A program made the translations under genes and the position numbers. This document shows, one piece after another, positions 1-59,945 of a stretch of 64,000 nt of DNA. The notes under the pieces were generated by a model that saw nothing but the letters and a program-made list of their open reading frames with translations, was not told where the DNA came from and searched no databases. The stretch covers positions 310,001 through 374,000 of the forward strand of contig NIVC01000137.1 in NCBI GenBank assembly GCA_002269645.1, given 5' to 3'. Each line of letters opens with the position of its first letter. The first letter of the stretch is position 1. This DNA is from Macrostomum lignano. Taxonomy: Eukaryota.

Positions 1-132
1 AAAAGTAGAAGAGATTCTTAGAATAGATTTATATAATTCAACACTCACAACCAAGTCAATTGAGTTAAAGTCACACGAAGCTGTCATGACATAATTAATT
101 TCTTAGGCTTGTCTCTATTAAAGTTAGCAAAT

Positions 133-433
133 CGAAATGAGTATCGAAGTTCATCTTCGGCTGATAAGCTATTGGAGGGCGAAGGCGTATGTCTGGCTTC
201 GCAGGCGGCGAGGAATCTGGCGCTGACGGAGAGGAAACGGTGAGACGCTCTTCGAGCATCCGGTGAAGAGAAGCCAAGGTTTGAGTTAGCAAGAGCTGCT
301 CACTAGGAGCTGGCGCAGCGGCAGCAGCTGCTCCTGCGAGCTGTTCGCCGGCATCGACTGCGTCCTGGCCTGGCCCGACGGCATCTCCGTCAGCCAATGA
401 CACTGCGGCGTGGTTTTCCCCGTTGTCGGACAT
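133..433 (-). pseudogene. gag: Gag N-terminal fragment (MSDNGENH...RPPIAYQPKMNFDTHF), truncated
   Basis: ORF 95..433. RPPIAYQPKMNF resembles RPNKYVPTQDF in the intact element's Gag. It runs into AT-rich host repeat at ~133. Confidence 0.55.
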
Positions 434-1051
434 TGTGCAAGATTGAGTGAGACGAATGAAACAAGCGTGAACGAAAATAAGGTTCCAGAGAAAACGAATT
501 GAGGTTGATGACGCGAGAGAGACGAGAGAGATTGCGTCCTACTAATAAAAATACGTGCCTGACAGGGGCAAACCACAAAAAGCCTAGAATAGGGGAGAGT
601 CCTATCACGCAAACCACCCAGACTAACTGTCAGGCAATAGTCCCTACAAACAATTAGCGCACGGCGTAACCTGGCGTGGCTTGGCACACGCAGCGGAGCT
701 ATTTTGGCAGAGCGTAAGCTCGAGCTCAACGCAGTTGGCAGCTTGCGTTGCTCAGGGCGACGACCAGCGCTGACTAGCGACGACAGCCCCTGACGTGGCA
801 CAGGCTCTCGCAGCCTTGCGGACCGACCCTCAGGCGTGGCACAGGCTCTCGCAGCCTTGCGGACCGACCCTCAGACGTGGCAGACCGGCACTCAGTCACA
901 AGCCGGCAGAGCTGGGCAGGAGTCTCGCTGGCGCTTGGTTGCGAGTTGGCAGGGCTGAGCAGAAGTCTTGATGGCGCTTGACGGCGAACTGGCAGTGCTG
1001 AGCATAAGTCTTGGTGGCGCTTAGTTGCAAGCCGGCAGTGCTGAGCAGGAG

Positions 1052-2199: not shown

Positions 2200-3400
2200 C
2201 AATCTCAACCCCCGTTGGGGCTTTCCGTCCAAACTCCAACCACAGTTTTCCCCATCCACAAAATCCCCGATGCAAAGAATCTCACATGCAAGGAATTCCC
2301 CATCCAAAGAACCCCCATCAATAGAATCACCGATCCGAAGAATTCCCCATTCAATGAATCCTCTACTCAAGAAATCCACGATCTACAGAAGCCCCCTATC
2401 TAAAGAATCCCCATCCAAAGAGTCCCTCATCCACAGAATCCCCATCCAAAGGATCCCTCATCCACAGAATCCAAATATAAAGAATCCTCCATCCATCCCT
2501 ATTCAAAGAATCCCCCCATCCATCCCTATCCAAAGAATTTCCCCATCCATTTCTACCTAAAGAATCCCCCATCCATCCATACCCAAAGAATCCCCCCAAT
2601 GAATCTCCATCCAAATAATTCACATCATAATCCCAATCTAAATAAACCATAGATCTCCCATCTAGATAATCCCCATCAAAGAAATAATTGGCCAAAGAAT
2701 TCCCTCATCTAAAGAACCCCGTCCGAATAATCTCCATATAAAGAATCCAAAGAATATCCCATCCAAATAATCCCCCTATTATTAGAATTCTTGGCCAAAG
2801 AATCCCCTCATCTAAAGAACCCCCGTCCAAATGACCCCCATCTAACGAATCCTTCATCTAAAGAATCAACCATTTGAAAAAACCTTCATAAAAACAATGC
2901 CCCATCAAAAGAATTCCTTTATGAATCACCTATCCAAAAATCCCTCATCCATCCCTATTCAAAGAATCCCCCCATCCATCCCTATCCAAAGAATTTCCCC
3001 ATCCATTTCTACCTAAAGAATCCCCCATCCATCCATACCCAAAGAATCCCCCCCAGCATCCCTCAATTAAAAGCATCCCTCATCCAAAGAATCATCAATC
3101 CATAGAATTCCCCCCAAGACTTAACATCTCAGCAATTCCCCCAAGCCTCGACACTTCAGAAAATTCCCCCAAGCTTTGACATCTTACCAATTTCTCCCCG
3201 TCCGAAGCCTTGACATCTCAGCAGTCCTACAAGTAAGCCTCTATATCTCAGTTATTCCCTGAGTAAGCCTTTATATCTCAGTAACTCCCCTTGTAAGTCT
3301 TGACATCTTAGCAATTTCTCCCCGTCCAAAGCCTTGACATCTCAACAGTTCCCCATTAAGCCTTGAAATCTCAGCAATTCCCCTCCCCAAGACTTGACAT
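2200..3400. repeat. Degenerate AAGAATCCCCCATCC / CTTGACATCTCAGCAATTCCC repeat block, copy 1 (continues 12041-12310 after the Gypsy)
   Basis: Same motif order recurs at 12311-13755. Confidence 0.8.
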
Positions 3401-4100
3401 TGTTGAGTATCGGCCTAATGGCCGCTGGACGGGTCAAGGTTCGGGCCCTCCCCGCCTGAGACACCCCTGTCCCAGCCCTCACCCCGGCTATTCCTACCCT
3501 GTCTCACTCGGTTCGGCGAGAGTTCGCCTGACCGAACACCCTGGGATCGGCGAGAGTTCACCGTTCCCAGGTCCCTGCAGATCCCGGCCCCACGCGGCAA
3601 CCCAGAAGAACGAAAGCTCGAGCTCACCTCCTCTTGATATATCGAGTTACTAACGAAGCGTTTATTGGCCCGAAGCAGTTATTGGCACGCGAAGGCAGAG
3701 GTACGCCGATGAACGCAAAAACAGTAAGAACGAAGCGGACACCAATAGAGAGCAAACGTGGAGCGCAGCCCGCTCAGGGCTAGCATTTAAATAATACACA
3801 AAAAAGGGGGAGGGGTGGGGCAGAATGGAGACGGCGAGCCAAACCCTGGGGCCCAGCCGGCTTATCAGCCAGCCAGCCAATACGAGCAGCCCCAAGGTGA
3901 GGCGGGCAACGAGGGAGGGGGGGGCACCCAGATTGGACAGAGATTGGGCCGGGGGCTGGGTGCAAAGGGCTAGGCCAGGGTTGAGACTTACGCCTCTCAC
4001 AAACCCTGGCCCGGGCGCGAGACGGGGGACGGGGCGGGGTGGCATGAAAACTGAAAACAAAAGTACGAGTACATACACACTGGAAGGGCGCAGCCCAACA
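3401..4100 (-). repeat. 3' LTR
   Basis: Direct repeat of 11341-12040 (offset 7940); one mismatch seen (3895 A vs 11835 G). Confidence 0.98.
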
Positions 4101-4112
4101 TCCTCCCCCTCC
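4101..4112 (-). promoter_or_regulatory. Polypurine tract
   Basis: GGAGGGGGAGGA on minus, abutting the 3' LTR. Confidence 0.9.
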
Positions 4113-4339: not shown

Positions 4340-5782
4340 CTACAATCGGCCAAAAAATCTACTACAGTTGGTCGCAAACAGTCGAGTCCAGTACCTGCGA
4401 TCACATTCACTGTCCGCTAGGGCTTCCGGCACGAACTTGATGGCTGTCGGGTCCTTGGGGTCTCCACCAAACGGTGCGGCCGATGTCACTAGCAGGCGCT
4501 GCCGCGGGAGACGCTTAGCCCGTTGGACCGCTCGCGGGGATCCTCGGCACCGAGCGGACACCTCGAAGAAGACCCCGTGGCACTTGCTCACCAGCGCGGC
4601 CTCGACGGCCTCCGGCAAGTCCAGGTCCTCGGCCAGCATGACGCTCATCGCTTGAAACTCCGGCTGCCGGAGGAATCCTAGGGCGACCGCCCAGGCAGGT
4701 TCGCCGCCTTCAACTCGGAACAAAACCGGCAGGCCGAACTCCTTGGCAAGCAAGAACTGCTCCATCGCCGCCGTTAACTGGTCCTGGCGCTGCGACCTCT
4801 CAGCGTCCCAATTGAGCTCGACTTCGCCGACCGCCACGACACGCGGCCAGCTACCCGCTAGAAATCGTCGTACATCGTCTCGCAGCGATGGCCACCACGG
4901 TGCAGCACTGGCCTTCAGGCCCAGGGCGAACACGATCCGTCGGTCTTGCAGCAGTGGTCGGACAACGGGACATTCTAGACGCAGGCAGTACGGCGAGTTT
5001 ACAGCCGCTAGACATCGACGCACGCCACGAAGGTCCTCGGGCTGAATCGACCGGCCCAGCCTCGTTAGGTATGCCTTTGCATCGACGAGACGCTTAGCCG
5101 AGCTGACCTTGCGCTGATTCGGGTCGTCACGGGGGGAGACCTCCTGGACCGTGTCGGCCGGTCGTACTTGCTCGGGGTCGACACCCGTTAACTCTTCGGT
5201 CGCCAAGTCGCGCTGGGCCGTCAGCGGAGTCTGCGAAAGGTGCGGCCCGTCACTCCCCTCCTCCGGGCGCCGCGCGAGGCCAGGATCCACTAAGAGAGAC
5301 AGACCCCGGAGCCTCCCCAACAAGGGACCCCCCAACTCACACAGCTCAAAACCCCGCACAGCCAACAACACGCACTCAAACGCCGCCTGCAGCACCGAAG
5401 GCGGGACCCTCCGACACCTCCCGGAACCACCACCAGAACCTCTCTTCCGCCCATACTGATTGCACAGAAACGACACAGACACTGCTAAGAATCTAGACAA
5501 CTGCTCAGGCACACTCACACCAGCCCCATCAAGAAACCTCGCCACCTCCTGAACCACCAGGCAAGCTCCTTCACTATCCCCAGCCCTCAACCGCGCCAGC
5601 AGCGCACCCCTCAGCCGCCTACACTCAGCAAGCGCAGCCGGAGCCAATAACTCGGCTGGGATCTCCGCGTGAACTGGAGCTTCCCCTGCGGCGCTTCCCT
5701 TAAGACTAGCCAAAGCTAACCTGACCTGCTCGGGCAACTCAACGTCAGGGGGAGGATTGAAAAAGTAGGCGTACTTTAACAC
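4340..5782 (-). CDS. ORF3 main part: helical region plus C-terminal TatD-like TIM barrel (aa ~231-480) with most metal ligands substituted
   Basis: 480-codon ORF. Motifs LVDAKAYL, VFALGLKA, VVAVGEVELN, LAKEFGLPVLF, LPRQRLLVTSAAPF and TNCSRFF align in order with TatD IDxHxH, GxHP, AIGExGLD, LAxExxLPVxIH, IPxDRLLxETDxP and NxxRLF. Confidence 0.8.
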   Translation of the reverse strand: MLKYAYFFNPPPDVELPEQVRLALASLKGSAAGEAPVHAEIPAELLAPAALAECRRLRGALLARLRAGDSEGACLVVQEVARFLDGAGVSVPEQLSRFLAVSVSFLCNQYGRKRGSGGGSGRCRRVPPSVLQAAFECVLLAVRGFELCELGGPLLGRLRGLSLLVDPGLARRPEEGSDGPHLSQTPLTAQRDLATEELTGVDPEQVRPADTVQEVSPRDDPNQRKVSSAKRLVDAKAYLTRLGRSIQPEDLRGVRRCLAAVNSPYCLRLECPVVRPLLQDRRIVFALGLKASAAPWWPSLRDDVRRFLAGSWPRVVAVGEVELNWDAERSQRQDQLTAAMEQFLLAKEFGLPVLFRVEGGEPAWAVALGFLRQPEFQAMSVMLAEDLDLPEAVEAALVSKCHGVFFEVSARCRGSPRAVQRAKRLPRQRLLVTSAAPFGGDPKDPTAIKFVPEALADSECDRRYWTRLFATNCSRFFGRL

Positions 5783-6015
5783 CCCTTGACACGCTGCCTC
5801 CCAACCCGATCGTATACTTCCCGAAACACTGGGTCAGATAAAACGCACATCGCCATCACGTCTCGCTGAGACTCCGGAGACTCTACCTCGGCAGGACAGA
5901 CGCGGGGCCGCTTTGAGTACAGACGACTACACGCTGCCTCAATCTCCGCAGAGTTAGCAGTCCGACCCACGCCTAACACGCCATACAAATCAGTCGGTGT
6001 CGTTGGCGACGACAT
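5776..6015 (-). CDS. ORF3 N-terminal part: DnaJ/J-domain-like module without HPD; probably fused to 4340..5782 across a 1-nt break
   Basis: DLYGVLGVGRTANSAEIEAAC...VLSDPVFREVYDRVG matches J-domain helix I/II and helix IV patterns. ATG at 6015; overlaps the next ORF at a GGGG run. Confidence 0.7.
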   Translation of the reverse strand: MSSPTTPTDLYGVLGVGRTANSAEIEAACSRLYSKRPRVCPAEVESPESQRDVMAMCVLSDPVFREVYDRVGRQRVKGC

Positions 6016-6352
6016 GGTCCTCCTGCAATGATGACATTTAAACCCAATCACTACCTATGCCTTGCGGACTAGCAACTGTGACCCTGACCTGACCCATCCT
6101 ATGACATGTTTATTTTACAATACGATTGAGAACGCTTCTTGCCTAGCATACTTTGTAATTTTAATACATTTAATGTTTTTTACGTGCTTTCCATGCGTTC
6201 CATTTTATGATTTTTTTGTGCTTTGGGGTTGTATCATTTTTTTCATTTTAGGTTATTTTAGGCTTTCTACCATAGACAACAGCGTGGAGGCATTAATACA
6301 AGTGCATATTAAAAATCAATTTATGACGACCGCCTTGTGAGCCCACTGCGAA

Positions 6353-9300
6353 TTAACGATACAATACCGGATTCCCGTAATACGCTGGGGGCACACCCCG
6401 ACGCTCGCGCAGTCTGCGCGGAGACACGGCTGGCGCCGCTGGAGCCACCGGTGCGCATGGCGCAACTGGCGTTCCCGGCCCTACTATCCCATGCCGAGGC
6501 CCAACGGCAACTGGTGGCACCACATACGAGTAAAACTCCTCCTCCTCCTCAAGTTCCGGCTCTTTAGTCGCCGGCCCCGCGGGCTCCTGTCTGCACCCTG
6601 CCGGCTCAGGCGGATGCGCCGACCGGCGCTGCACTGCCGTATGCCTATTCATCAACCTGAACTGCTCAGGCCGCTCGGGTACTTTTCGCAAATTATTATA
6701 ATGCACTATTTTGCTCTTTCCCCTATTGGCGTGCTTTACCCGGTAATTCAAATCGGATATCTTCTCTAACACCTTCGCCGGCCCCTTCCAATTGCAATGG
6801 AACTTGGCTGCCTCCCCTGCCTGCAGCGCAGGCGAGTATTCTAGGACGGCATCCCCACTTCTATGGCCGGGCCTCGCACCCTTGAGTCGTACAGCACTTT
6901 CTGTTTCCTCTGGTACTGCTGCAGGTTGGTCCGCACCTGCGAATGAGCCTCAGCCAGACTATTACCTAATGACTGAACATACGCCGGAGCACTGGCAGGA
7001 ATGGACTCAGGCAAGGTTCCGATGTCCACTGGAAGCCGCATCTCCCTGGCGTACAGCATGTAGTACGGGGTGTACCCCGTGCCTCTGTGAACGCTGCTAC
7101 GGTACGCCATGAGAGACGGGTGGATCAGATCCTCCCAGTCTCCTTCGCCCACCGACTCACTCATCCTGCACTTGATCATTGACTTCAACGTCTTATTGAA
7201 ACTCTCAGCCTGACCATCAGCCATCGGGTGATAGGAGGACGTTCTGCATTTCTTAACGGCAAGCAACCGACACAACTGCTTCATCAAAGCCGACTCAAAA
7301 TTGGTGCCCTTATCGGTGACTAGAAATTCAGGACAACCAAAGTGCGCAATCCAGTGATCAAAAATCGCTCGCGCCACCGTCGGGGCTCGCTGATTCGACA
7401 AGGGCACCGCCACCGGCCACTTAGTAAAAGAATCCTGGATTGTCAGCACGAATCGATTGCCACCTCTGGACTTGGGCAACGGCCCGACAATGTCACTCAT
7501 GATCCTCTGGAAAGCTCCTTCCGAGCAGATTGGCTGCAAAGGCGCCCGGTTGCTGCGCCCAGGCTTCGCCTTCGCACAGTGGACACAGCTCCGGCAATAC
7601 TCTTCCACGGAACGACTCAGCCCCGGCCACCAGTATCTCGCCTTCACTTTCTCTTGTGTCTTCCTAACCCCAAGGTGCCCTCCTGCAACCCCATCATGAA
7701 GCTCACTGAGCACTTTCGGCAGCAAAGCCGGCGGCAGCAAGATCTTTTTCTGGCACCCACTCCCGGGACTCTGAAAATACAACAGATCAGACTCTACTCT
7801 TATCAGCTGCCGTTGTGCCCACAGCACACGCTCCTCCCACGACATCACTCTAGGCGCACTGGGGTTCGAACCCGGGTCCAGGGCATAGGAGCGGACAGCT
7901 GCAAGCTTCTTCTCGGCCACTTGCGCCTGCTGGACTTCCTTCGAAGACAGCCCACTGCCAAACACCGCGTTCACTACTGGCACATTCTCGCTAAACTGGC
8001 AGCTAGGGCAGCTCTCATGGCCAGCGTGTTTTCGGTACTTGCGAGACAGCGAATCAGCGTTGCCGTGCTCCTTGCCTGGCCTGTGAATGATCTCAAAGTC
8101 GAAGTTCTGGAGCGACTCAAGCCACCTTGCGCACTGACCCTCTACGTCCTTCAGACTGGCTAGCCACTGCAAAGCTTTGTGGTCTGAACGAACAGTGAAC
8201 TTTCTACCTAACAAATAGTACCTATACTTTTTGACGAAGTGCACGACGGCAAGCAACTCTAACCTGGTGGTGCAATAATTTTTCTCCGCCGCATGAATCA
8301 TCCTAGACCCGTAAGCGATCACCTTCTCACGGCCATCTGCTTGACGCTGTGACAGGACGGCTCCCAGCCCGACGCGCGAACTGGCGTCCGTGTCGAGGAT
8401 GAACTCCCCGGCACCAGGCGAAAAATCCGGGAATGCCATCACATTCGGTGAACACAAAGCGTCTTTCAGCCTGCAAAACGAACTCTCCTCTTCACTACCC
8501 CACTCAAACTTCACTCCGTCTGCGGTTAACCTATACAGCGGCGCTGCAATCTCCGAAAACTGCGGGATAAATGACTGATAGTAGGCGCACGTACCCAGGA
8601 ATGCCTGCACCTTCTTGGCGCTACATGGCCTCGGCCAATTCTGGATCTCCTCGCACTTGCTCGGGTCCGTTGCGATCCCCTCCTGAGAGACGATGTGGCC
8701 CAGAAACTTCACCCGCTCTGCGAGGAACACACACTTGGCGGGCTTCAGCTTGACATTGGCATCCCTCAGGCACTGGAAAACATGCTTCAATCGCTCGAGA
8801 TGCTGACCCACCGACTTGGCGAACACGACTATATCGTCAAAGTACACCAGGCACTCCTTCCAGTTAACCTCAGACAGGGCCATAGACATTAGCCTGGCGA
8901 ACGTAGCGGGAGCATTGCGCAAGCCAAAACTCATGCACTTCCAGGCGAACTGACCCCTGTTGGGTACCACGAACGCCGTTTTCAACTGGTCCTTCGGCTC
9001 AATCGGGCACTGATGATAGCCGGAGGCCAGATCCATCGTCGAGAAAACACAGTTCCCTCCTAGCGCATCAAGCGTCTCGTCCATCCGCGGCGGTGGGTAA
9101 GGATCTGGCACTGTGACCTCGTTAAGGCGCCGATAGTCTAGACACAACCTCAAGCTACCGTCGGCCTTTTTAACCGGCACGATCGGGCTCGCCCACGGAG
9201 AGTAGCAGGGATAGATGCGATCCTGCTGCAACAACTCATCAACCTGCTTATCAATTTCCTCCTTCCAGCGCGGTGGAATCCTACGCGCGGGCTGACTTAC

Positions 9301-10290
9301 TGGCTTGGCGTTGCCGGTGTCAATCTCATGCGCCATCAAGTGTGACTGTCCCAACTCCGAGCTATCCCTGGCAAAGACATCACGATTCCGAGCCATCAGG
9401 CGCTCAAACTCGTGCTTCTCATCGCCCGTCAGGCCACATCCTCCCCACTCCTTGACATCGCTGAGGGGGTTCCAGTCGTCTCGGACACTCTCCACCGAGT
9501 TCACCTGCCACCCAGCTGGCTGCTGGGCCGCCACTGGGGAGAACCAACCAATTCGGCTTCCCTTCCTTAATGACAGACTGCATCCTGACGTGTTCAACAC
9601 CCTGACAGCCAAGCGACCGTCCCCGTCAGGCATCTGTACCGATCTGGCCACCATCTGCTCGTTACTCACTCTCCTCTCAGACTCCACAATGCCTAGGAAC
9701 TGAACCCCAGAGGGAACCCTTCTCTGCAACCTGACGTGCACCACCTTCTCTTGACCTGCATTGAACTGCTCAGGCTGACTCAGCACCAGACGGCAAAGAC
9801 GCGGCTTATCTGCTGATAAGCGAAACGGATACACACAGGATGCAGTCTGCAAGCAATTCCTAGCAAAGTCAATCGCCATCCCGTGTCTCACGAAAAAGTC
9901 AGTGCCCAGAATACATGCCACAGCCAGTTCCTCGACCACAGCGAACTCGTGCAAAAACTCGGTGTCCCCAACAGAAAACTTCATCGTCACCATTCCATGT
10001 ACAGCAATCGGTTCCCCATTGGCAGCGAAAACGGAAAAATTCGGCAAATTCGGCAATAAGTCAATGTCGGCTTTTTTAGACTTCAGGAAACGGTTGCTTA
10101 ACAACGACACGGTGGCCCCGCTGTCAAGCAGACATGCAATCGGGGGCCCAAACCTAAACTGTGCATCCACATAGCCCAGTCCCTGCCGACTCAGCACACT
10201 CTGGGACAAGGCCGCGGCCCCCGATGCACCCGGATTCACTGACGCTGGGGCCCGGACGGGTGCCCCGGCCGAGCCCCCAATCCGTTTCCC
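6353..10290 (-). CDS. pol: Pol: aspartic protease, reverse transcriptase, RNase H, integrase; 1-nt break near 6855
   Basis: LLDSGATVS; LRLCLDYRRLN, YFDDIVVF; ILDTDAS, HGNADSLSR; GGHLG..C..C, DIVGPL, TDKGTNF. ORF 6841..10350 continues in ORF 6353..6772 (KFHCNWKGPAKVLEKISDLNYRV). Confidence 0.97.
10226..10290 (-). promoter_or_regulatory. -1 programmed ribosomal frameshift signal (G GGA AAC, 6-nt spacer, H-type pseudoknot)
   Basis: Heptamer 10284-10290 is in the gag frame and pol is in the -1 frame. Stem 1 GGGGCUCGG/CCGGGCCCC, stem 2 GCACCCG/CGGGUGC. Confidence 0.85.
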
Positions 10291-11216
10291 GAACCCGACT
10301 GGTCCCACCGACGATAGCAGCGGTTGCGCATGTGCCCTGACTGGCCACACTCCCGGCAGACCACTGCATTACGGCACCGAGCCGTAGTATGCCCTGTCTG
10401 CAGGCACCGACCACACTGCCTCTGCTGCTGACTCTGCTCAGGGGCTCGATGCTGCAAGCTCACTTTTGGCTGCTCAGACCTTGCTGTCGCCATCGGCGCA
10501 GTGGGCGCTGCAGCACTTGCTTTTAGCTGAGCCACTTCCGCTTTCAGAGCTGCTATCTCGGCGGCTGCCCTGGACTCCTGGCTGTTGCCAGCCGCTGCGG
10601 CCTGACCCCCCACCATGTGCACAGCTCGCTTGCCCTCGGGCTCCATCAGAGCCAACGATGCCCTCACTTGACGCACCCGCCTAATAGCGTCCTGGAGCGT
10701 CTCTGGCGCTTGCAGCAGCACGCTCTCCAGCACCCGGGCTGGCACCCGAATCCCCTTCAAAAACCTGTCTTTCACCAACTCTTCTCGCTGGGCCGCTGGC
10801 AGCATTGGGTACGATTTTCTCATAAGCTCCTTGAGCACGTCTGCATATTCTTCAATGGGCTCGCCATCTTTCTGATTCCTACTCTGGAACTCGGTCTTGT
10901 AATCTTGAGCAGTCCTATTCTCATCAAACCTAGCCTCTAGCTGCTCAACAAACTCATCATACGGCAAATCATCGGCCAACTCAAGATTCGCAACAGCCTT
11001 AAAAGCAGTATTAAAGTCAAGCAGACTGAGCAGCGCCTGCTTGCGCTGATCCCCTAGAATATGAGCCGCCTCACAATACCCTGTGAATTGTTGCATCCAA
11101 AGGGCAAAGTCCTGTGTGGGCACGTACTTATTTGGCCTCGGCACCCGCTGTGCCACATTAAGTTCGTTTTGCAGACGCGCCGTCAGGGCGTCAATCAGAT
11201 CGTCTAAATTGGCCAT
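10236..11216 (-). CDS. gag: Gag with two CCHC zinc knuckles
   Basis: ATG at 11216 (MANLDDLIDAL); CGRCLQTGHTTARC and CRECGQSGHMRNRC. Confidence 0.95.
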   Translation of the reverse strand: MANLDDLIDALTARLQNELNVAQRVPRPNKYVPTQDFALWMQQFTGYCEAAHILGDQRKQALLSLLDFNTAFKAVANLELADDLPYDEFVEQLEARFDENRTAQDYKTEFQSRNQKDGEPIEEYADVLKELMRKSYPMLPAAQREELVKDRFLKGIRVPARVLESVLLQAPETLQDAIRRVRQVRASLALMEPEGKRAVHMVGGQAAAAGNSQESRAAAEIAALKAEVAQLKASAAAPTAPMATARSEQPKVSLQHRAPEQSQQQRQCGRCLQTGHTTARCRNAVVCRECGQSGHMRNRCYRRWDQSGSGNGLGARPGHPSGPQRQ

Positions 11217-11320: not shown

Positions 11321-11338
11321 ATCCTGGTCACGGCACCA
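11321..11338 (-). promoter_or_regulatory. Primer-binding site complementary to tRNA-His(GUG)
   Basis: TGGTGCCGTGACCAGGAT, 2 nt from the 5' LTR; complementary to the ...ATCCTGGTCACGGCA-CCA end of invertebrate tRNA-His. Confidence 0.9.
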
Positions 11339-11340: not shown

Positions 11341-12040
11341 TGTTGAGTATCGGCCTAATGGCCGCTGGACGGGTCAAGGTTCGGGCCCTCCCCGCCTGAG
11401 ACACCCCTGTCCCAGCCCTCACCCCGGCTATTCCTACCCTGTCTCACTCGGTTCGGCGAGAGTTCGCCTGACCGAACACCCTGGGATCGGCGAGAGTTCA
11501 CCGTTCCCAGGTCCCTGCAGATCCCGGCCCCACGCGGCAACCCAGAAGAACGAAAGCTCGAGCTCACCTCCTCTTGATATATCGAGTTACTAACGAAGCG
11601 TTTATTGGCCCGAAGCAGTTATTGGCACGCGAAGGCAGAGGTACGCCGATGAACGCAAAAACAGTAAGAACGAAGCGGACACCAATAGAGAGCAAACGTG
11701 GAGCGCAGCCCGCTCAGGGCTAGCATTTAAATAATACACAAAAAAGGGGGAGGGGTGGGGCAGAATGGAGACGGCGAGCCAAACCCTGGGGCCCAGCCGG
11801 CTTATCAGCCAGCCAGCCAATACGAGCAGCCCCAGGGTGAGGCGGGCAACGAGGGAGGGGGGGGCACCCAGATTGGACAGAGATTGGGCCGGGGGCTGGG
11901 TGCAAAGGGCTAGGCCAGGGTTGAGACTTACGCCTCTCACAAACCCTGGCCCGGGCGCGAGACGGGGGACGGGGCGGGGTGGCATGAAAACTGAAAACAA
12001 AAGTACGAGTACATACACACTGGAAGGGCGCAGCCCAACA
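11341..12040 (-). repeat. 5' LTR
   Basis: Copy of 3401-4100. TATA-like TATTTAAAT at 11725-11733 and AATAAA at 11601-11606 on minus. Confidence 0.98.
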
Positions 12041-12310
12041 ACATCTTATAAATTCCCCCTTAAGCTTTGACATCTCAGCAATTCCCCCCCACAAGACTTG
12101 CATCTCAGCAAGTCCCTCTTAAGCCATCACATCTCATTAATTCCCCTAGGTAAGATTTTATACATGTATTTCAATAATTCCCCCTGTAAATCTTGACATC
12201 TTAGAATTCTCTTCCGAGCAAGCATCCCCCTAAGAGCAAGCGTCCTTCCGATAACAAGCATCCCCTGATAGAAAGTACTCCCACCAAGATTAGTGAAACG
12301 ATTTACTCAG

Positions 12311-13755: not shown

Positions 13756-14974
13756 AATAGTTAGTTTCTTATCAAGTGCAATAATCCTTTTCAAAATTCT
13801 AAGTTTAATAAAAATTTTTGAATATACTACATGAACGCTAGTAGCTTTTTCTCTTTTAACTGATTTACCGGACGTTTTTTACAGTTAAAATAAAAAACTT
13901 TTACTCTCTAAAAATTCGAACCCACGTCGCTTTATTAACAGTTCAGTCTGTTCACCTCTAGGCTAACTCTCATTGTTTCGATAACATGAATTGTAGCACT
14001 ATATATAATTCAACACTGAAAACTCCAAGAATAGTGTAGAAATCACTCGAAGCAAGTTATGACATAATCAATTTCTCAGGCAGTCTGCATCAGTTTCAAT
14101 TGAAGTCAACAAAATTGTTACGCAATCTAAATTTAAATACAATGGCGCTGGCTTGAATTGTGGAGTTGCGATAAAGTAGGGGTTTGCGATATGGAAGAGC
14201 GTACAATGAGTATATAAAGTAAAAAGTAAAGAAATCATCTTTTTAATGCTGTGCTCTTAATTTATTGAATCTCAGAAAACAAATTGTATTCCCGAACTCA
14301 GCGTTTCTAGCTCTTTCTAACAATACAAGGCTCTCTTGTGAAAGTGAAAAACCCGAAGCACAAACAGCGATTACACATTCCTGCTTGAAAGCATTGAAAT
14401 TAAATAGGTGTACATCCAGCGCCAGCTACAGTGAGAGGCCTGCAAGTTGATGCATTGAAATTAACAACCAAGCAATGCCTGGACAAATTGAATAGCGACA
14501 CCCTCCCCCAAATTTCAATAACTTAAAGGTGTTGCGCAACCTTTCAACGCTTGTAGCTTTCCACGCCAGTGTAGAGAACCAATGCTATAGTTGGCACTGA
14601 GTTATGATGCAATACAATTCCATTGGCAGTCAGAACGCTTCTCAATCGGAAAAAAACTGTTTGAACTTAAAAAAACGGGGCAAAAAATAGAGTTTTTTGA
14701 ATATTTAAGCCCGAAAAAATGAAGCAATTTCTTTGCAAAATTTTGTGTACCAGTGCACCATAAATACACATCGAATGCAGCAAACCCCACAAAATTCGGA
14801 CCACGCAAAGTCAAGTTAAACGAAGGTTCCTATAGATATATACTAGCAATCTTCGCCCCCCGTTGGGGGACATCTGTATAGAATCTCTGCTCTCTACAAG
14901 TAACAAAAAGATAGCCAAATAAAGCATTCACAAAGAAAACAGACAAAATACTTAAATGAAGTGCAATGCAAAAA

Positions 14975-15505
14975 GACAGCAAGCATCCCCCAGATAGCAA
15001 GCATCCCCCAGATTGCAAGCAAATCCCGGATAGCAAGCATCCCCCAGATAGCAAGCATCCCCCAGATAGCAAGCATCCCCCAGATAGCAAGCATCCCCCA
15101 GATAGCAAGCATCCCCCAGATAGCAAGCATCCCCCAGATAGCAAGCATCCCCCAGATAGCAAGCATCCCCCAGATAGCAAGCATCCCCCAGATAGCAAGC
15201 ATCCCCAGATAGATAGCATCCCCCAAATAGCAAGCATCCCCCAGATAGCAAGCATCCCCAGATAGATAGCATCCCCCAAATAGCAAGCATCCCCCAGATA
15301 GCAAGCATCCCCAAGGTAGCAAGCACCCCCAGATAGCAAGCATCCCCCAGATAGCAAGCACCCCCCAGATAGCAAGGATCCCCCAGAAAGCAAGCATCCC
15401 CAAGATAGCAAGCTTCCCCCAGATAGCAAGCATCCCCCAGATAGCAAGCATCTTCCAGAGAGCAAGCTCCCCCAGATAGATAGCATCCCCAAATAGCAAG
15501 CATCC
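14975..15505. repeat. 18-bp minisatellite GATAGCAAGCATCCCCCA
   Basis: Direct tandem copies. Confidence 0.95.
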
Positions 15506-15599
15506 ACCAGACAATAAGTAGCTAGTGCGACAATTTCCTTAGCATTATAGTGGCTCCTTTAAAATACGCTTACTTTTACGTTTGAAATTGTGTATCTTT

Positions 15600-18140
15600 T
15601 ATGTTTGGCATGGTGGCTCTTTAATGTTTGACATGGTGGCTCTTTTATGTTGACATGGTGGCTCTTTTATACTTGACATGGTGGCTCTTTACTGTTCGAA
15701 ATGGTGGCTCTTTTATGTTTGACATGGTGGCTCTTTTAGGTTTGACATGATGGCACTATTATGTTTTGACATACTGGCTCTTTAATGTTTGACATGGTAG
15801 CTCTTAAATGTTTGACATGGTAGCTCTTAAATGTTTGACATGGTAGCTCTTTTATGTTTGACATGGTGGCTCTTTATTGTTTGACATGGTGGCTCTTTAA
15901 TGTTTAACCTGGTGGCTCTTTTATGTTTGACACGGTGGCTTTTATTGTCTGACATGGTGGCTCTTTTATGTTTTACATGGTGGCTCTTTATTGTTTGACA
16001 TGGTGGCTCTTTAATGTTTAACCTGGTGGCTCCTTATGTTTGACACGGCGGCTCTCTAATGTTTGACATAGTGGCTATTTAATGTTCGAAATGGTGGCTC
16101 TTTAAAGTTTGACATAAAGTCACAAATATGTTTGAGATGGTGGCTCTTAAATGTTTGACATGGTGGCTCTTTAATGTTCTTCATGGTGGCTCTTCAATAT
16201 TCTACATGGTGGCTCTTTTATGTTCGACATGGTGGTTTTTAATGTTTGACATGGTGGCTCTTTTATGTTTGACATGGTGGCTCTTTACTGTTTGAAATGG
16301 TGGCTCTTTAATGTTCTACATGGTAACTCTTTTATGTTTGATACGGTGGCTTTTTAATGTTTGACATGGTGGCTCTTAAATGTTTGACATGGTGGCTCTT
16401 CTATGTTTAACATGGTGGCTCTTAAATGTTTGACATGGTGGCTCTTTAATATTCTACATGGTAACCCTTTTATGTTTGATACGGTGGCTTTTTAATGTCT
16501 GACATGATGGCTATTTTATGTTTGAAATGGTGGCTCTTTTATGTTTGACATGGTGGCTTTTTAATGTTTGACATGTTGGCTCTTTAATGTTAGACAAAGT
16601 GGCTTTTTAATGTTTGACATGGTGGCTCTTTTATGTTCGACATGGTGGCTTTTTACTGTTTGAAATGGTGGCTCTTTAATGTTCTACATGGTAACTCTTT
16701 TATGTTTGATACGGTGGCTTTTTAATGTCTGACATGGTGGCTATTTTATGTTTGACATGGTGGCTCTTCTATGTTTAACATGGTGGATCTTAAATGTTAG
16801 ACACGGTGACTCTATAATGTTCAACATGGTGGCTCTTTAATTAATATTCTATATGGTGGCTCTTTTTTGTTCGACATAGTGGCTTTTTTGTTCTACATGG
16901 TAACTCTTTTATGTTTGATACGGTGGCTTTTTAATGTCTGACATGGTGGCTCTTAAATGTCTGACATGGTGGCTCTTAAATGTTTGACATGGTGGCTTTT
17001 TAATGTTTGACATGGTGGCTCTTTACTGTTTGAAATGATGGCTCTTTAATGTTCGAAATGGTGGCTCTTTTATGTTTGACATGGTGGCTCTTTACTGTTT
17101 GAAATGATGGCTCTTTAATGTTCGAAATGGTGGCTCTTTTATGTTTGACATGGTGGCTCTTTTAGGTTTGACATGATGGCACTTTTATGTTTTGACATAG
17201 TGGCTCTTTAATGTTTGACATGGTAGCTCTTAAATGTTTGACATGGTAGCTCTTAAATGTTTGACATGGTAGCTCTTAAATGTTTGACATGGTAGCTCTT
17301 TTATGTTCAACATGGTGGCTCTTTATTGTTTGACATGGTGGCTCTTTAATGTTTAACCTGGTGGCTCTTTTATGTTTGACACGGTGGCTTTTATTGTCTG
17401 ACATGATGGCACTTTTATGTTTTGACATAGTGGCTCTTTAATGTTTGACATGGTGGCTCTTAAATGTTTAACCTGGTGACTCTTTTATGTTTGACATGGC
17501 GGCTCTCTAATGTTTGACAAAGTGGCTATTTAATGTTCGAAATGGTGGCTCTTGAAAGTTTGACATAAAGTCACATATATGTTTGAGATGGTGGCTCTTA
17601 AATGTTTGACATGGTGGCTCCTAAATGTTTGACATGGTGGCTCTTTACTGTTTGAAATGGTGGCTCTTTAATGTTCTACATGGTAACTCTTTTATGTTCG
17701 ACATGGTGGCTTTTTAATGTCTGACATGGTGGCTCCCAAATGTTTGACCTGGTGGCTCTTTAATGTTCTTCATGGTGGCTCTTTAATATTCTACATGGTG
17801 GCTCTTTTATGTTTGATACGGTGGCTTTTTAATGTCTGACATGGTGGCTATTTTATGTTTGACATGGTGGCTCTTCTATGTTTAACATGGTGGCTCTTTT
17901 ATGTTTGACACGGTGGCTCTTTAATGTTCGACAAAGTGGCTATTTGATGTTTGATATGGTGACACTTAAATGTTTGACATAAAGTCACATAAATGTTAGA
18001 CGTGGTGGCTCGTTTAGTTTTGACATGGTGGCTTTTTAATCGTTGACATGGAGTCACGTATATGTTTGACATAGTGCTTATTTTATGTTTGGCATGGTGG
18101 CTCTTTTATGTTTGACATGGTGGCTCTTCTATGTTTGACA
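15600..18140. repeat. 23-bp satellite TTTGACATGGTGGCTCTTTTATG (~110 copies)
   Basis: Direct tandem copies with point variants. Confidence 0.95.
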
Positions 18141-19022
18141 TTCCGCTTCTATTATGTTTAGCAGTTTTGTGTTTTTAAGGTGTTTTGATAAAAAAATCTT
18201 TTTGCACTACTAAGATTCGAACCCAGGTCGCTACATTAGCATTCCAGTCTGTTTGCATCTTGGCTATCTATTTTCAATTGGAGAACATGAATTGTGGCCC
18301 TTATAATTCAATTCTTACAGCAAGTCAATTGGAGTAAAAAGTTATGACATAATCAATTTCTCAGTCAGCCAGTATCAGTCTCAATTTGAGTTAGCAATAT
18401 GGTTACGAAATTTCATTCAAGTCGTGTGTGCATTTCTTCGGCACTGTTTTCAACTTGTTGTGATGCAATCTTTATCACAATCGGAATTCAGCCAGTCAGT
18501 TTTTTCTCTAGCATTCTTACAATGAATTTTAGGTCGAAAGAGCTGCTTGACCTTTGCAAAAAAGCATGTTTTTCGAATATTTAATCCCTTTAACATTGAG
18601 AAATTTCTTAGCCAGGATGCATGTACCGTCCCAGGAAAATTTCCGATCGAATGGTGCAAGTTTGAAGAAAATCGGTTGAGCCGTTTTTTCTGGAATCTAT
18701 CTCACACATACACACAGACATTTCATTTTTAGTATATAGGAAGATAGGTAGATAGGTAGGTACATAGTTTTGATTTTTAGTATATTGGATAGATAGGTAG
18801 GTACATAGTTTTGATTTTTAGTATATTGGAAATAGATATATAGATAGGTAGATAGGTAGGTACATAGTTTTGATTTTTAGTATATTCGAAATCGTTGAAT
18901 TGTGTGGCTGTTCTACTAGAGGAATATCATAGGAGGTAAGTCATCTATTTGTTGTGAGCTGCGCCTCGCAATGCCTTTGCCCTGACCTCTTCGCTCTTCG
19001 CCCCTCCTCTCCCTGTCACTGG

Positions 19023-22561: not shown

Positions 22562-24956
22562 TTGAAATGCAGCACTGTACAGTGGGCGAGAAGGGGCAGG
22601 AAGGGAAAAGATCCAAAAGTTAAAGATCCTAGGATTAATCTAACCTTTAGAGTAACCAGAGACAACAGGGCTGGCTGCACACCTCCTGAACTGGCCAACC
22701 CGAGCGTTAGACCGCCAGACGAGGCTATCACGTGCGACCTCGACAACGAGGATTCAATTCGTCGCAGAGCCAGTCAGGATGCTGCCAATCTGGAAAAAAT
22801 TAGATCAAGGTCGAACAGCAAAACTAGGCAACTAAACTCTACTAACGCACAACAAACTACTGAGCAATCAAACTCTGCTACTCAGCTTACTCAGCAGTCG
22901 CTACCAGACACCCAGCAAAATCAGCCAGAGTCTCAGCAGGCACAACCAATCACCCAGCAACACTCAAAAAACACTCAGAAAGCACACTCAGCCACTCAGC
23001 AACCAGACACACAGCAGCCAGCCACTCAGGCTAGCACTAAGCCAAAGCACTCAGACACTCAGCAACCACAAACAGACACTCAGCAGTCACAGCCAGCAAA
23101 CATGCAAGTTGCTAACAGGCAATCTAATCAGCCTAAGCAGACAGCTCAACCGACAGCTCAAGCTAGCCATCAACATGCTCAGGCATCTAGTCAATCCAAC
23201 ACAATACTTAAGCAACAAGCAATTGTCAGACACTCACACACAGAAGCCTAACAGCTACGAATTGCCGCAGCAAACAACTAACCAGCAATCAAACACTCAC
23301 TCACAGCAATCAAGCACTCGCACACAGCAGGCAAGCACACACACTCAGCAGTCACAAGCACGCACTCAGCAACAATCTAACAAATCTAAAATTGCACCGA
23401 TCATAATTGAAATGCCCATTGAGGCAAAGAACCCAATCAAGTTCGAGCAATTCTTGAAAAAATAATTTTCCAGAAACTCGCATAATTTCTGTCAAAGAGC
23501 TGTACCACAGCTCGGGGTACTATGTATTTGCCAGCACACAACAGGAAATGAACAAACTACTAACAGCACCACTAAGACTAACTGAAATCAATGGGCAAAC
23601 AGTATCCAGACGCCTGCCATCAAACAGACCGCGTCAACAGGCTGACGACAGACTGCGCAAGCCATAAAAGTCACCCAAGGTTCAATCCATCATAGTCAAG
23701 GGGTCCCTCTCGCTGTGGAAGTGGAGGAACTCTTGGCGTACCTTAGGGAAAACTATGCGCACCTGCAATTCAAAGGAGCTTTGAGAATAGTCTCCAAAGC
23801 AACGGGGCGACCTACGCCACTAATCAGACTTTTCTCGAACAGCAAAGGCACCGTTGAGTATGTTATACACGGCCACTCTCATTCTCTGCGCGGGCTATTT
23901 TATTCCAGATGCACATTGAGCTGATGTACGTGCAAGGTTGATTGTACGTGTAATGGGATGTACGTTTCTCTCGCATCGAACCCTTAGGTTGGCTCTTAAA
24001 TATATATATCGCAATCAATGCCCAAGTCGGGGCCGAAGTCTTACTCAGCAAATTATCTCTGTTTCGCGTCAGTCACTACAGAGTACTGCCTTGAGAATGG
24101 TATCCGGCTTGGAGCGCTTAGATTCCGATGCGAAGAATCTCACAACTTGCCTCCAGTCAAGGAGGTACAGTGCCAGCGCTGCCAAGGGCTGGGGCACACA
24201 GAGAATCGCTGCAGTGCCGACTTCGTTTGCAGCAAGTGCGCCGGTGCACACTTCTCAGGTGACTGCCCAGAGGACACGGCATTCAAGTGTGCCAACTGTG
24301 GCGGAAACCATCCGGCCTATTCCTTCAGATGTGAAAAGGTACGCACTGCTAGCAGGCTTGCCACGGAGAAAGAACACAGCCGCATCCAAGCACTTAAAGT
24401 TAAATTTAATCAGTCAAAACCAACTGAGCAATTAGGTACTAGTGATAGGATAGATAGTCAGTTCTTGGCCGAGACCTTCGGTGTGCCGGGGCCACTGACC
24501 TACGCCGACATGACAAGACCAAGACCAAGGCCTACTCTCAGCCCTATTGTCTACTCCAATCGTGCCGCTGCCGCTGCTGCTGCCCAACCGAACATGGTGA
24601 CCAATCAGACCGCGCTTCCTGCTGACAACGCCGTGCCGGCAATGAGCAAGCAGTCTGCACTACCGACCAGCAGCGCTGAGCCAGCCCAAGCTGAACCAAT
24701 AACGGACAATGCTGCTCCCAACGTTGTAACCGGTGAGAGGGGCTTCACGCAGAATGATGTGCTCGGGGTGGTACTTGAGGCACTCAACCGGATCATGGAG
24801 ATTGAACCGGGGCGTCTGCTCACTGCCTGGGAAGCAAGCCAGCTTGCTATTCGGGTAGTGACGGAGGTCCTGGCGACCTTCTTGAATCCCGGAAGGGTGC
24901 CTGCTGCCAGGGCAGGTGAAGCCAAAGCCACTTCGGTGAGCGGAGGCGGATCCTAA
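22562..24956 (+). pseudogene. LINE ORF1 (Gln/Thr/Ser-rich N-terminus, PRE_C2HC-like region, 3 zinc knuckles), broken
   Basis: CQRCQGLGHTENRC, CSKCAGAHFSGDC, CANCGGNHPAYSFRC; split over ORFs 22562, 23109, 23715 and 24018. Confidence 0.8.
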
Positions 24957-24981
24957 GCACTGATAAATCTGAAAATTAATT

Positions 24982-26640
24982 ATGGCTTTCAATAGTAAAA
25001 ATTCCAATAGCGCACTGAAAATTGGTCACCTAAACTGCAATAAACTTAGCAACAAAATGCACGAGATTATTATGTGGTTGCACAATGACAATATAGACAT
25101 TGGTCTTTTCTCCGAAACTGATCTCAGAGATAAGGACAAGTTTTATGTACAAGGCTACGCTGTTATCAGATACGACACTCCTGACTGCAGGAGAGGTCTG
25201 GCAATTGCTAATAAAAATACCTTAAATGTTTCGAACGTTAACAAATTTTATGACAACTCTAACCATGAGTTTATTAGCCTCAATGTCACTCCGAACAATA
25301 ACCCCAGAAACACTCTCAGGATTTCCCTTATTTACAGAGCTCCAAATCCTGACCAAATCAGCACTGCACTGCTTGAGCAGCTGCTCTCCGAACCTAGATC
25401 CTTACTTATAGGAGATCTTAACTGTCGCCACTCTATGCTGGGCGGTGACAGTGTAGAAAACTTCCCAGGGAAACAACTGTATGAATGGTTTGATAACCAT
25501 CCGGATCCCCCCTTCATCCTAAACTCCTTTGGTGACTGCACCACGATTAATAATAGAGGGGGCAACATTATTGGTAATGTACTTGATCTAGGCATCTGCT
25601 CCCCTGACCTGATTAAACTTTGTCAGTGATGTCATTGTTGGCGATGATCTCGACAGTGACCACCTACCCATTATTGTTAAAGTTTTTATTGATCCCAACT
25701 CCAGGGCTAAACCAAAACCACCCAAAAGCTACTGGCACACGGATTGGGAGACCTTCAGATACGTTCTCCAAGACAAACTAGAAAACTGCAATATGACTCG
25801 ATCCCGTATCTCCACTCCCTATGAACTTGACAAAGTCGTTGATTGAAAACTCTTCAAACAAACCAGAATTGATGCTTTTAGAGTTAAAGCAAATCAAGCT
25901 GCTAAAGAGATCAGAAATGCTATTAAAATGCATAGATATAGAAAATTTGAAATTTTATGTAACAAAATTGCCAAAACTATTTATAGAAGAGAACCGCGTC
26001 AATTCTGGGTTGACATAAAAAAATGACTGGGCAAGCTATCCAACCTATCTCTCTTCCCGCCCTTAGTTACAATGGGGTTACTGCTGAGACAGAGCAAGAG
26101 ACTGCTAACTTATTTCAGGACTTCCTTAGAGACCAAATGCAGCCTCATCCCGATTCTGAGTCCTAACTTTATGATAAAGTCATCTCCAAGGAAGATCATG
26201 AGATCTTCAGACCCCACGATAGTATGGTCAGAGCCCTGACCTACCACCGTGATAGGGCTGACCCTAGTGACCTTGATAAGGAAGACATGGAGTCCGACAT
26301 CCTCAACAGGGAGCCCCAGGCCCCGATCAGATTCCTAATATTGTCCTAAAAAAGGGGCTTAGCCCGGACTCTGTTAAAACCATTGCCAAAATTTTCAATA
26401 GCTCGTACAAGCTTTCTTCTGGGCTACTTTCCCAAGGCCTGGAAGCGGGCAACTATTAAGATGATCCCGAAGCCAAAGAAAACGAGGCACGAAATTAATA
26501 ACTACAGACCTATCAGTTTAACCTCCTGCCTGGGAAAACTGTACGAAAAAGTAATTGCCAGAAATCTCAGAATGATTTTAGAAAACTAAGGTATTATTAA
26601 TGAAGACCAATGTGCGTACAGACAAGATCACCAAGTCATC
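24982..26640 (+). pseudogene. LINE ORF2: AP endonuclease and start of reverse transcriptase
   Basis: GHLNCN, FSETDL, IGDLNC, VLDLG, DSDHLPI; WKRATIKMIPKPKK, NYRPISLTSCLGKLYEKVI; ends before the YxDD motif. Confidence 0.85.
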
Positions 26641-54410: not shown

Positions 54411-54447
<37 letters not shown>

Positions 54448-54534
54448 CACTCTACTACTACTACCACTCTACTACTACTACTACTACTACTACCTCTACT
54501 ACTACTACTACTACCACTACTACTACTACTACTA

Positions 54535-54573
<39 letters not shown>

Positions 54574-55111: not shown

Positions 55112-55158
<47 letters not shown>

Positions 55159-55193
55159 TACTACTACTACTACCACCACTACTACTACTACTA

Positions 55194-55239
<46 letters not shown>

Positions 55240-59898: not shown

Positions 59899-59945
<47 letters not shown>

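What the first reader, a model, noticed from the sequence alone, without database searches (positions are those of the whole stretch)
4340..6015. Young Gypsy retrotransposon carries a J-domain-like / TatD-fold cargo gene where env would be
Seen: between the integrase stop (6353) and the PPT (4112), inside the LTRs, lie ~1.68 kb of sense-strand, GC-rich, stop-free coding sequence. It reads as a J-domain-like module (6015-5776), a ~230-aa helical/low-complexity region and a full TatD-like barrel (~5092-4340). It has no signal peptide, TM segment or furin site, so it is not an envelope gene. Known: Ty3/Gypsy ORF3s are typically env or small accessory genes; TatD proteins are metal-dependent nucleases and J-domains recruit Hsp70. 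Inference: the element captured and kept a chimeric host-derived gene that may act as a nucleic-acid-binding, anti-silencing or particle-assembly factor. I do not recall this cargo being described for LTR elements, but I cannot search to confirm novelty.
Basis: partly seen in the sequence, partly recalled or inferred. Interest (0 to 1): 0.92.

Follow-up and report, generated by a model that had tools for sequence, protein, structure and literature searches.

The report
Flatworm retrotransposons carrying chaperone-derived third gene
A group of jumping genes in a marine flatworm carries, where retroviruses keep their envelope gene, an extra gene built on a heat-shock co-chaperone domain, and the family in this window has added a disabled DNA-cutting enzyme fold to it, which suggests the elements make their own regulator to help them spread.

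Summary
The third ORF is real. It lies between integrase and the 3' LTR of a young Ty3/Gypsy element of Macrostomum lignano (LTRs differ at 1 of 700 bases). In this copy it is not stop-free: the frame breaks near 5800. However, 9 of 19 full-length copies read as one 558-codon frame, and dN/dS between subfamilies is about 0.3. The architecture is J-like domain, five-helix domain, TatD fold. Both recognisable domains look disabled here: there is no HPD, and only 1 of 3 essential TatD acids is kept. The larger finding is that this is a derived member of a clade-wide ORF3. At least five other Gypsy families carry a 283-328 aa ORF3 with an intact HPD J-domain, an acidic linker and the same helical domain, without TatD; one adds a chromodomain. 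TatD was appended once, in one sub-lineage. Splice acceptors before the start codons point to a spliced subgenomic mRNA, but no spliced read was seen. Best guess: a nuclear accessory regulator that recruits Hsp70 in most families and is a binding-only scaffold here. No function was shown. My literature searches found no description; Repbase, GyDB and Dfam could not be checked.

The parts
11341..12040 (-). 5' LTR, 700 bp, TG...CA, with TATA-like site at 11736 and AATAAA at 11606
   Evidence: 1 mismatch to the 3' LTR
11562..11570 (-). candidate splice donor in U5 (first intron base 11567)
   Evidence: best consensus match among 5 donor-like sites in LTR plus leader; the public automated gene model P0010 leaves the LTR here; no read shows the splice
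11321..11338 (-). primer-binding site, 2 nt after the LTR
   Evidence: resemblance to the complement of a tRNA-His 3' end is recalled, not tested
10236..11216 (-). gag, 326 aa, two CCHC knuckles; an acceptor-like site ends 2 nt before its ATG (11219)
6353..10368 (-). pol (protease-RT-RNase H-integrase), frame broken near 6850 in this copy
   Evidence: single frames of 1338-1341 codons in other copies
6023..6030 (-). candidate splice acceptor, 7 nt before the ORF3 ATG
   Evidence: three public gene models enter ORF3 here; acceptors sit before ORF3 in all 8 families or copies whose start could be located
5779..6015 (-). ORF3 N-terminal pseudo-J-domain (no HPD)
5282..5641 (-). ORF3 five-helix domain with an exposed basic loop; shared by all ORF3s of the clade; no family or fold assigned
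4340..5092 (-). ORF3 C-terminal TatD-fold domain, catalytic residues mostly lost
4101..4112 (-). polypurine tract
3401..4100 (-). 3' LTR; 4-bp target-site duplication at 3397-3400 and 12041-12044

Best explanation
ORF3 is a selected accessory gene of a Ty3/Gypsy clade in Macrostomum. SHOWN: it is a multi-family ORF3 with a core of J-domain + acidic linker + five-helix domain, under purifying selection; one family inserted a chromodomain, and one sub-lineage (this family and two relatives) appended a TatD fold that has lost its catalytic residues. INFERRED: it is translated from a subgenomic mRNA spliced from a donor in the 5' LTR to an acceptor just before its start, as env genes are. INFERRED mechanism: the protein acts in the nucleus on the element's own chromatin or RNA (raising transcription, or releasing or exporting unspliced genomic RNA). 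The helical domain and the added module (chromodomain or dead TatD barrel) bind the target. In HPD-bearing families the J-domain brings in Hsc70/Hsp70 to remodel the bound complex, as polyomavirus T antigen does. In the window's family, which lost HPD, the protein works as a binding scaffold or decoy without stimulating Hsp70. Odds: real selected gene about 0.93; spliced expression about 0.75; nuclear regulator role about 0.4.
For: One 558-aa frame in 9 of 19 full-length copies. dN/dS 0.34, 0.29 and 0.32 between three subfamily copies and 0.31 in family 2, all p<0.001. A homologous J+helical+TatD ORF3 in a second family whose pol is only 54% identical. Five further families with an ORF3 right after integrase and HPD invariant in 8 of 8 short ORF3s aligned, Pfam DnaJ 48-65 bits, all above cut-off. 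An ORF3 hit lies 0.8-4.5 kb downstream of 96 of 150 RT matches. TatD-bearing families form one clade in the integrase tree (100/100) and the ORF3 tree (100/98). YAG ends 0-1 nt before the ATG in 5 of 7 families against 6.5% of 694 ATGs (pattern chosen after seeing the data). Family 2 has no in-place ATG: its acceptor is followed by TG, and both of its unlike LTR types carry a donor preceded by A, so splicing would create the start codon. Pointers to the nucleus: chromodomain at 47.7 bits in one family; linkers 21-40% acidic; a conserved basic loop in a confidently folded domain (pLDDT 83.6).
Against: No spliced junction in 4 runs laid; all are contigs whose RNA status is a guess. ORF3 looks dispensable for some lineages: a sister family with 82-84% RT identity has no ORF3 hit at 0 of 9 loci (its DNA was not read, and the searches score only part of their candidates). 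All 6 family-2 loci read have a broken ORF3, including one with intact 1307-aa pol, 99.6% identical LTRs and most of ORF3 deleted. Within the window's family the TatD part alone is not significantly below neutrality (0.42, p 0.14; 0.36, p 0.056), nor is the J part in one of two comparisons; the method ignores transition bias and so reads low. The window's family has lost HPD and most of the acidic linker, so the Hsp70 step cannot be assumed for it. Nothing here measures location, partners or effect.
Confidence: 0.4

Rival explanations
1. ORF3 is a suppressor of small-RNA silencing: it diverts or blocks the Hsp70/Hsp90 machinery that loads Argonaute/PIWI proteins, and the dead TatD barrel shields RNA or cDNA ends. 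The HPD-less form would act as a competitive decoy.
For: [quoted passage not shown] Rapid divergence with domain gain and loss (long J+helical branch of this family) fits a host-element conflict. Pseudo-J-domains are discussed as possible competitors of working ones (PMC13254874).
Against: No direct evidence. The chromodomain insertion points to chromatin rather than cytoplasmic loading complexes. No heat-shock element in this element's LTRs.
Confidence: 0.22
2. ORF3 is a dedicated chaperone adaptor for the element's own particle: it targets Hsp70 to Gag or Pol for assembly, reverse transcription or uncoating.
For: Class C J-proteins target Hsp70 to specific clients, and phages and polyomaviruses encode them (PMC13254874 section 8). 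ORF3 and integrase trees agree on the one well-supported clade, consistent with descent alongside gag-pol.
Against: A sister family and some intact family-2 copies appear to lack a whole ORF3. Loss of HPD in a recently active family is hard to fit. A chromodomain is not needed for particle assembly.
Confidence: 0.2
3. The TatD domain is an active 3'-5' exonuclease that trims element RNA or cDNA ends, like the DEDDy ORF3s of bdelloid rotifers.
For: TatD fold recovered by sequence and structure; the glutamate matching E. coli E91 is kept in all three divergent versions.
Against: E. coli E91, E201 and D203 are each essential (PMC4176340). E201/D203 align to Thr/Ala here, Ala/Ser in family 2 and Ala/Gly in P0008; the conserved histidines are replaced too.
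Confidence: 0.05
4. ORF3 in this family is a passenger in slow decay, carried because the family is young; any function lies only in the HPD-bearing relatives.
For: Both recognisable domains are degenerate; 10 of 19 full-length copies are broken in the assembly; family-2 copies are all broken.
Against: dN/dS about 0.3 between subfamilies, and 0.29 (p 0.00075) for the TatD part in family 2. The three-domain frame persists across families 35-38% identical. A third version 51% identical exists outside this assembly. Breaks recur at a few codons as single-base length differences, and public contigs disagree with the window at its break.
Confidence: 0.08

Closest known systems
Bdelloid rotifer Juno/Vesta LTR retrotransposons with DEDDy exonuclease or GDSL esterase ORF3 (PMC5408684)
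   Same: Non-envelope, enzyme-derived ORF3 between pol and the 3' LTR of Ty3/Gypsy elements; function unshown.
   Different: Different folds (DEDDy, SGNH) with catalytic residues reported intact; here a TatD barrel with catalytic residues lost, fused behind a J-domain and a helical domain.
CERV of C. elegans Cer1 (PMC10309623, abstract only)
   Same: Accessory protein of an LTR retrotransposon from a spliced mRNA, nuclear, needed for export of unspliced genomic RNA: the closest functional model for my best explanation.
   Different: No J-domain or TatD is mentioned in the abstract; sequence likeness was not tested.
Virus-encoded J-domain proteins: polyomavirus T antigens, phage RB43 Rki, HPD-less HSV-1 ICP22 (PMC13254874 section 8)
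   Same: A mobile element encodes its own J-domain or J-mimic to direct host Hsp70.
   Different: These are DNA viruses; the section lists no retroelement. No likeness beyond the J-domain was found.
env ORF3 of errantiviruses (Drosophila gypsy)
   Same: Same position; acceptor before ORF3; start codon possibly made by splicing in family 2 (the gypsy precedent is recalled, from no call).
   Different: No signal peptide or membrane segment; no envelope homology in Pfam.
Gmr1/Osvaldo cluster of M. lignano LTR retrotransposons (PMC12801592: 40 families)
   Same: Same species and superfamily; RT motifs and domain order fit this cluster by my recall.
   Different: [quoted passage not shown] Cluster membership was not tested with reference sequences.
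Cellular TatD/TATDN nucleases and class B DnaJ proteins
   Same: Source families of the two recognisable domains (best solved J match DNAJB13, E 6e-5; best folds TATDN3, YjjV, TatD).
   Different: Intronless, inside LTRs, motifs degenerate; host TatD genes in the same genome keep their motifs and lie in several exons. The donor gene was not identified.

Membership tests
Ty3/Gypsy LTR retrotransposon (Metaviridae) | gag, then pol in the order protease-RT-RNase H-integrase | tested here: met
   Pfam hits in this order
Ty3/Gypsy LTR retrotransposon (Metaviridae) | TG...CA LTRs, PBS, PPT, short target-site duplication | tested here: met
Gmr1/Osvaldo cluster | RT groups with GyDB Osvaldo/Gmr1 references | not testable with these tools
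   no reference set held; assignment is inference from recalled RT motifs and the cluster list in PMC12801592
env-type ORF3 | signal peptide and transmembrane anchor | tested here: not met
   highest 19-residue hydropathy 1.49; no envelope family in Pfam
env-type ORF3 | spliced subgenomic mRNA | tested here: inconclusive
   signals conserved; no junction in 4 runs of contigs
J-domain protein (window family) | Pfam DnaJ above curated cut-off | tested here: not met
   23.8 bits alone, 18.3 in the 558-aa protein, cut-off 27.8; homology still clear
J-domain protein (window family) | HPD motif between helices II and III | tested here: not met
   absent in P0003 and P0004; pseudo- or type IV J-domain in the terms of PMC13254874
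J-domain protein (related ORF3s) | Pfam DnaJ above cut-off and HPD | tested here: met
   HPD in 8 of 8 short ORF3s and in family-2 copy L052; 48-69 bits; family-2 copy L053 has lost the His
J-domain protein (related ORF3s) | stimulates Hsp70 ATPase | not testable with these tools
   needs a bench assay
TatD nuclease | TatD-type TIM-barrel fold | tested here: met
   Foldseek best ranks are TatD-family structures, E 4e-5 to 1e-3, on a model of modest confidence (mean pLDDT 51.6)
TatD nuclease | Pfam TatD above curated cut-off | tested here: inconclusive
   window family 23.1-23.5 bits (under 27); family 2 35.3 bits (over)
TatD nuclease | catalytic acids E91, E201, D203 (E. coli numbering) | tested here: not met
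   only E91 kept (E398); E201 and D203 align to T511 and A513; H127 to R434
HSE-driven heat-induced LTR families of M. lignano | canonical heat-shock element in the LTR | tested here: not met
   no perfect three-unit HSE in this element; the induced family Mlig-id38 has a 338-bp LTR, this one 700 bp
known fold for the five-helix domain | structural match to a solved or viral predicted structure | tested here: inconclusive
   no Foldseek match at E<=0.001; best Z 7.8, rmsd 3.9 over 110 residues, within the range common for helical bundles

The most novel reading that the evidence does not exclude
A whole Gypsy clade encodes its own class C J-domain co-chaperone on an env-like spliced message and swaps targeting modules onto it (chromodomain, dead TatD barrel). 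It would be a retrotransposon counterpart of polyomavirus T antigen that aims host Hsp70 at silencing chromatin or RNA complexes, with this family's HPD-less, nuclease-dead version a double pseudo-enzyme decoy. I found no retroelement-encoded J-protein in the papers searched.
Probability: 0.35. Interest if true: 0.85.

Novelty: new variant of a known kind. Interest (0 to 1): 0.64.

Why it matters
Accessory genes of animal LTR retrotransposons other than env are few and mostly unexplained. A J-domain ORF3 kept across families with 43-56% integrase identity would be a direct way for a retroelement to steer the host Hsp70 system, so far described for DNA viruses and parasites. The clade supplies a natural series (HPD present or lost; with chromodomain, with TatD, with neither; ORF3 apparently absent) in a worm with RNAi and transgenesis, so the question is testable. 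It also matters for annotation: element copies inflate the apparent J-protein and TatD counts of this genome (10 of 21 TatD matches are element-borne), and several public 'J domain-containing protein' entries of M. lignano are these ORFs.

Tried and rejected
Word-index protein search with the 558-aa protein: none at E<=0.001 among 8000 candidates. ESM Atlas: no usable hit for the whole protein or the helical domain; neither shows novelty. No run was on record as RNA (no RNA holder listed). Two joints seen lack GT-AG ends and are not the predicted intron. Complex prediction of Gag (residues 1-219) with the helical domain: no support, score 0.01, no evidence either way. Fold searches of the helical domain gave no assignable match. 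A link to heat induction was sought and not found: no HSE in this element or in the partial LTRs of 14 related loci (one match lies inside pol of L055), and six short ORF3-start motifs were absent from the paper's consensus archive (weak test). P0054/P0155, a catalytically intact TatD with an unrelated N-terminus, was considered as a relative with an active site; it lacks the J and helical domains, so it is not this ORF3. The 3' region of the sister family (RT 82-84% identical) was not read, so its lack of ORF3 rests on missing search hits only. Earlier findings of this scan: three look-ups returned nothing. Rejected: envelope gene; host gene captured with the flank (it is inside both LTRs in many copies); chance ORF.

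Full report
OBSERVATION. [quoted passage not shown] Between the integrase stop (6353) and the PPT lies the reported ORF, 61.5% GC between 38% GC spacers. It is not stop-free in this copy: a 79-aa frame from the ATG at 6015 and a 497-aa frame ending at 4340 overlap, with the break near 5800. The assembly (764 Mb, 5269 contigs) has 22 DNA matches, 19 full length, and 9 of the 19 read as one 558-aa frame. The breaks in the others are single-base length differences recurring at a few codons. Contigs from public runs differ from the window at this break in 3 of 3 runs that cover it, and at the pol break in 4 of 4. The 558-aa product is therefore the family's normal form. Sixteen of the 19 copies align in one piece from integrase through ORF3 into the 3' LTR; the other three are cut by a deletion, a contig end or a rearrangement. 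Near-identical public proteins are named as Macrostomum lignano. The assembly is described as redundant (PMC12801592), so counts overstate insertions.

DOMAINS. Residues 9-69 match Pfam DnaJ and residues 359-535 match TatD_DNase, both under the curated cut-offs. The best solved J matches are class B proteins. A model of modest confidence (pLDDT 51.6) retrieves TatD-family structures first. Both domains look disabled. The J-domain has no HPD, and even conservative changes there abolish Hsp70 stimulation (PMC13254874 passages). Of the three acids essential in E. coli TatD (E91, E201, D203; PMC4176340 passages) only E91 is kept; the others align to T511 and A513, and the histidines are replaced. 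The same loss is seen in family 2 and in an outside relative, P0008. There is no membrane segment. The middle (126-245) is a real domain: five helices at pLDDT 83.6 with an exposed basic loop, with no Pfam family and no assignable fold.

SELECTION. Pairwise dN/dS over ORF3 is 0.34, 0.29 and 0.32 among three subfamily copies (first pair 27 synonymous, 26 non-synonymous, p 1.4e-4) and 0.31 between two family-2 copies; integrase gives 0.23 and 0.09. By domain, the helical part is lowest (0.14-0.25). The TatD part is 0.29 (p 0.00075) in family 2, but 0.42 and 0.36 (not significant) in this family. The method ignores transition bias and reads somewhat low.

THE WIDER FAMILY. A protein search of the genome found a second family, ORF3 33-39% and pol 54% identical, with the same three domains and, in one copy, an intact HPD. 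A profile search of 1.84 billion representatives returned, besides ordinary DnaJ and TatD proteins, a few true relatives: P0016, P0135 and P0022 (J + acidic linker + helical domain) and P0008 (TatD part). P0008, P0016 and P0022 were searched against this assembly and match at 51%, 50% and about 48% at best, so they probably come from other genomes; the organisms are unnamed, and P0135 was not searched. Searching with P0022 uncovered many more loci. Of 8 regions fetched, five hold an open 283-328 aa ORF3 directly after integrase, one holds a broken ORF3 with no pol match, one a decayed TatD-type family, and one a degenerate fragment. In the 8 short ORF3s aligned (5 from the genome, 3 outside) HPD is invariant; none has TatD; one has a chromodomain; linkers are 21-40% acidic. 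Of the 150 best RT matches, 96 have an ORF3 hit 0.8-4.5 kb downstream on the same strand: 20 of 20 at 96% identity or more, 0 of 2 at 92%, 0 of 9 at 82-84%, 10 of 14 at 66-72%, 66 of 86 at 54-61%, 0 of 19 at 52-53% (hit lists were capped, so misses are not proof of absence). The three TatD-bearing families group at 100/100 in an unrooted integrase tree of 8 rows, and the two with a readable N-terminus at 100/98 in an ORF3 tree of 11 rows. The simplest history, inferred without a root: J+helical ORF3 first, TatD appended once, HPD lost later on the long branch to this family.

EXPRESSION. A YAG ends 0-1 nt before the ORF3 ATG in 5 of 7 families and within 16 nt in 7 of 7; the background is 6.5% and 42.5% of 694 ATGs in the same loci (pattern noticed first, tested after; one degenerate locus, L063, had no locatable start and was left out). 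Family 2 has no in-place ATG: its acceptor is followed by TG, and its two unlike LTR types each carry a strong donor preceded by A, so splicing would build the start codon, as I recall for Drosophila gypsy env. In the window the best donor is at 11567, and an automated public gene model joins exactly this donor to the ORF3 acceptor; that is prediction, not evidence of a transcript. Four runs laid on the element cover it but show no such junction; all are contigs of guessed RNA status. Splicing is likely but not shown.

MECHANISM. Nothing here measures function. The conserved core is what a class C J-protein looks like: a J-domain to call Hsp70 and a private domain to pick the client. The modules added in separate lineages, a chromodomain and a dead nuclease barrel, both suggest chromatin or nucleic-acid binding, and the basic loop resembles a nuclear signal (recalled consensus). 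I therefore favour a nuclear regulator of the element's own transcription or RNA export (0.4), on the models of T antigen (PMC13254874 section 8) and Cer1 CERV (PMC10309623 abstract). Rivals are suppression of small-RNA loading (0.22), particle chaperoning (0.2), decaying passenger (0.08) and active nuclease (0.05). Against indispensability: the closest sister family shows no ORF3 hit, and all 6 family-2 loci read have a broken ORF3, one with intact pol and 99.6% identical LTRs; supply in trans or simple dispensability would both fit. No link to heat induction was found.

WHAT IS KNOWN. Ten full-text searches gave no listing describing a DnaJ or TatD ORF in an LTR retrotransposon; most hits I saw only as listings. 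Read more closely: PMC12801592 (parts 1-2 of 6, passages, supplement 1 whole, word searches of all five supplements), with no DnaJ, TatD or ORF in the main text and DnaJ only in host-transcript annotations; PMC5408684 (part 1 of 5 and passages), the nearest precedent for enzyme-derived ORF3s; passages of PMC13524379, PMC10410713, PMC6338049, PMC11125864 and PMC8775202. In those searched for DnaJ, TatD or retrotransposon links the words did not occur together. Not seen: Biryukov et al. 2020, the earlier classification of these very elements (not held); figures; one supplement store that gave no answer; Repbase, GyDB, Dfam; most subscription journals. Any of these could hold a prior mention.

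VERDICT. A real, selected, non-envelope ORF3. In this family it is a double pseudo-enzyme rather than a nuclease plus co-chaperone, and it is one offshoot of a clade-wide J-domain accessory gene. New variant of a known kind; interest 0.64; function open.

Noticed in passing
window 31458-31854: Five perfect and two near-perfect heat-shock-element matches cluster in an AT-rich stretch, beside a TATA-like site near 31430 and about 600 bp from a Gypsy pol fragment (30358-30825). It may be an HSE-bearing LTR or a heat-shock promoter. The window-wide count (17) equals chance (17.9); only the clustering stands out.
   Followed up: partly
window 95-870, minus strand: Start of what looks like a second LTR element's gag-like ORF with leader, cut by the window edge.
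   Followed up: no
L058:1303-2286 (G000 C330), public proteins P0157/P0160: ORF3 variant with a chromodomain (Pfam 47.7 bits) between the J and helical domains; about 20 near-identical loci; annotated in NCBI as stand-alone 328-aa M. lignano genes.
   Followed up: partly
window about 5522-5230 (inside ORF3): Two public gene models (P0005, P0006) skip most of the helical domain in frame through donor- and acceptor-like sites; may be a prediction artefact or an alternative isoform.
   Followed up: no
window 11219: An acceptor-like site also precedes the gag ATG, so the U5 donor could splice to gag and drop the primer-binding site from that message.
   Followed up: no
L052:3200-3700 and L013:4050-4677: L052 has ORF3 and 3' LTR of family 2 but unrelated sequence in place of pol; L013 has a second copy of the element starting right after the 3' LTR (tandem arrangement).
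   Followed up: no
G000 C575:335814, C1901:447, C3488:57828 and 89405, C1744:6568: Five near-identical DnaJ matches, four inside open frames of 1374-1449 codons; possibly another repeat family carrying a J-domain.
   Followed up: no
window 24000-25629, plus strand: Zinc-knuckle ORF followed by an endonuclease-like ORF: remains of a non-LTR retrotransposon by appearance.
   Followed up: no
window 14900-18500, 33400-36250, 46700-51800, 54400-62100: Many tandem-repeat arrays (units 8-43 bp); the element itself is inserted in a degenerate array.
   Followed up: no
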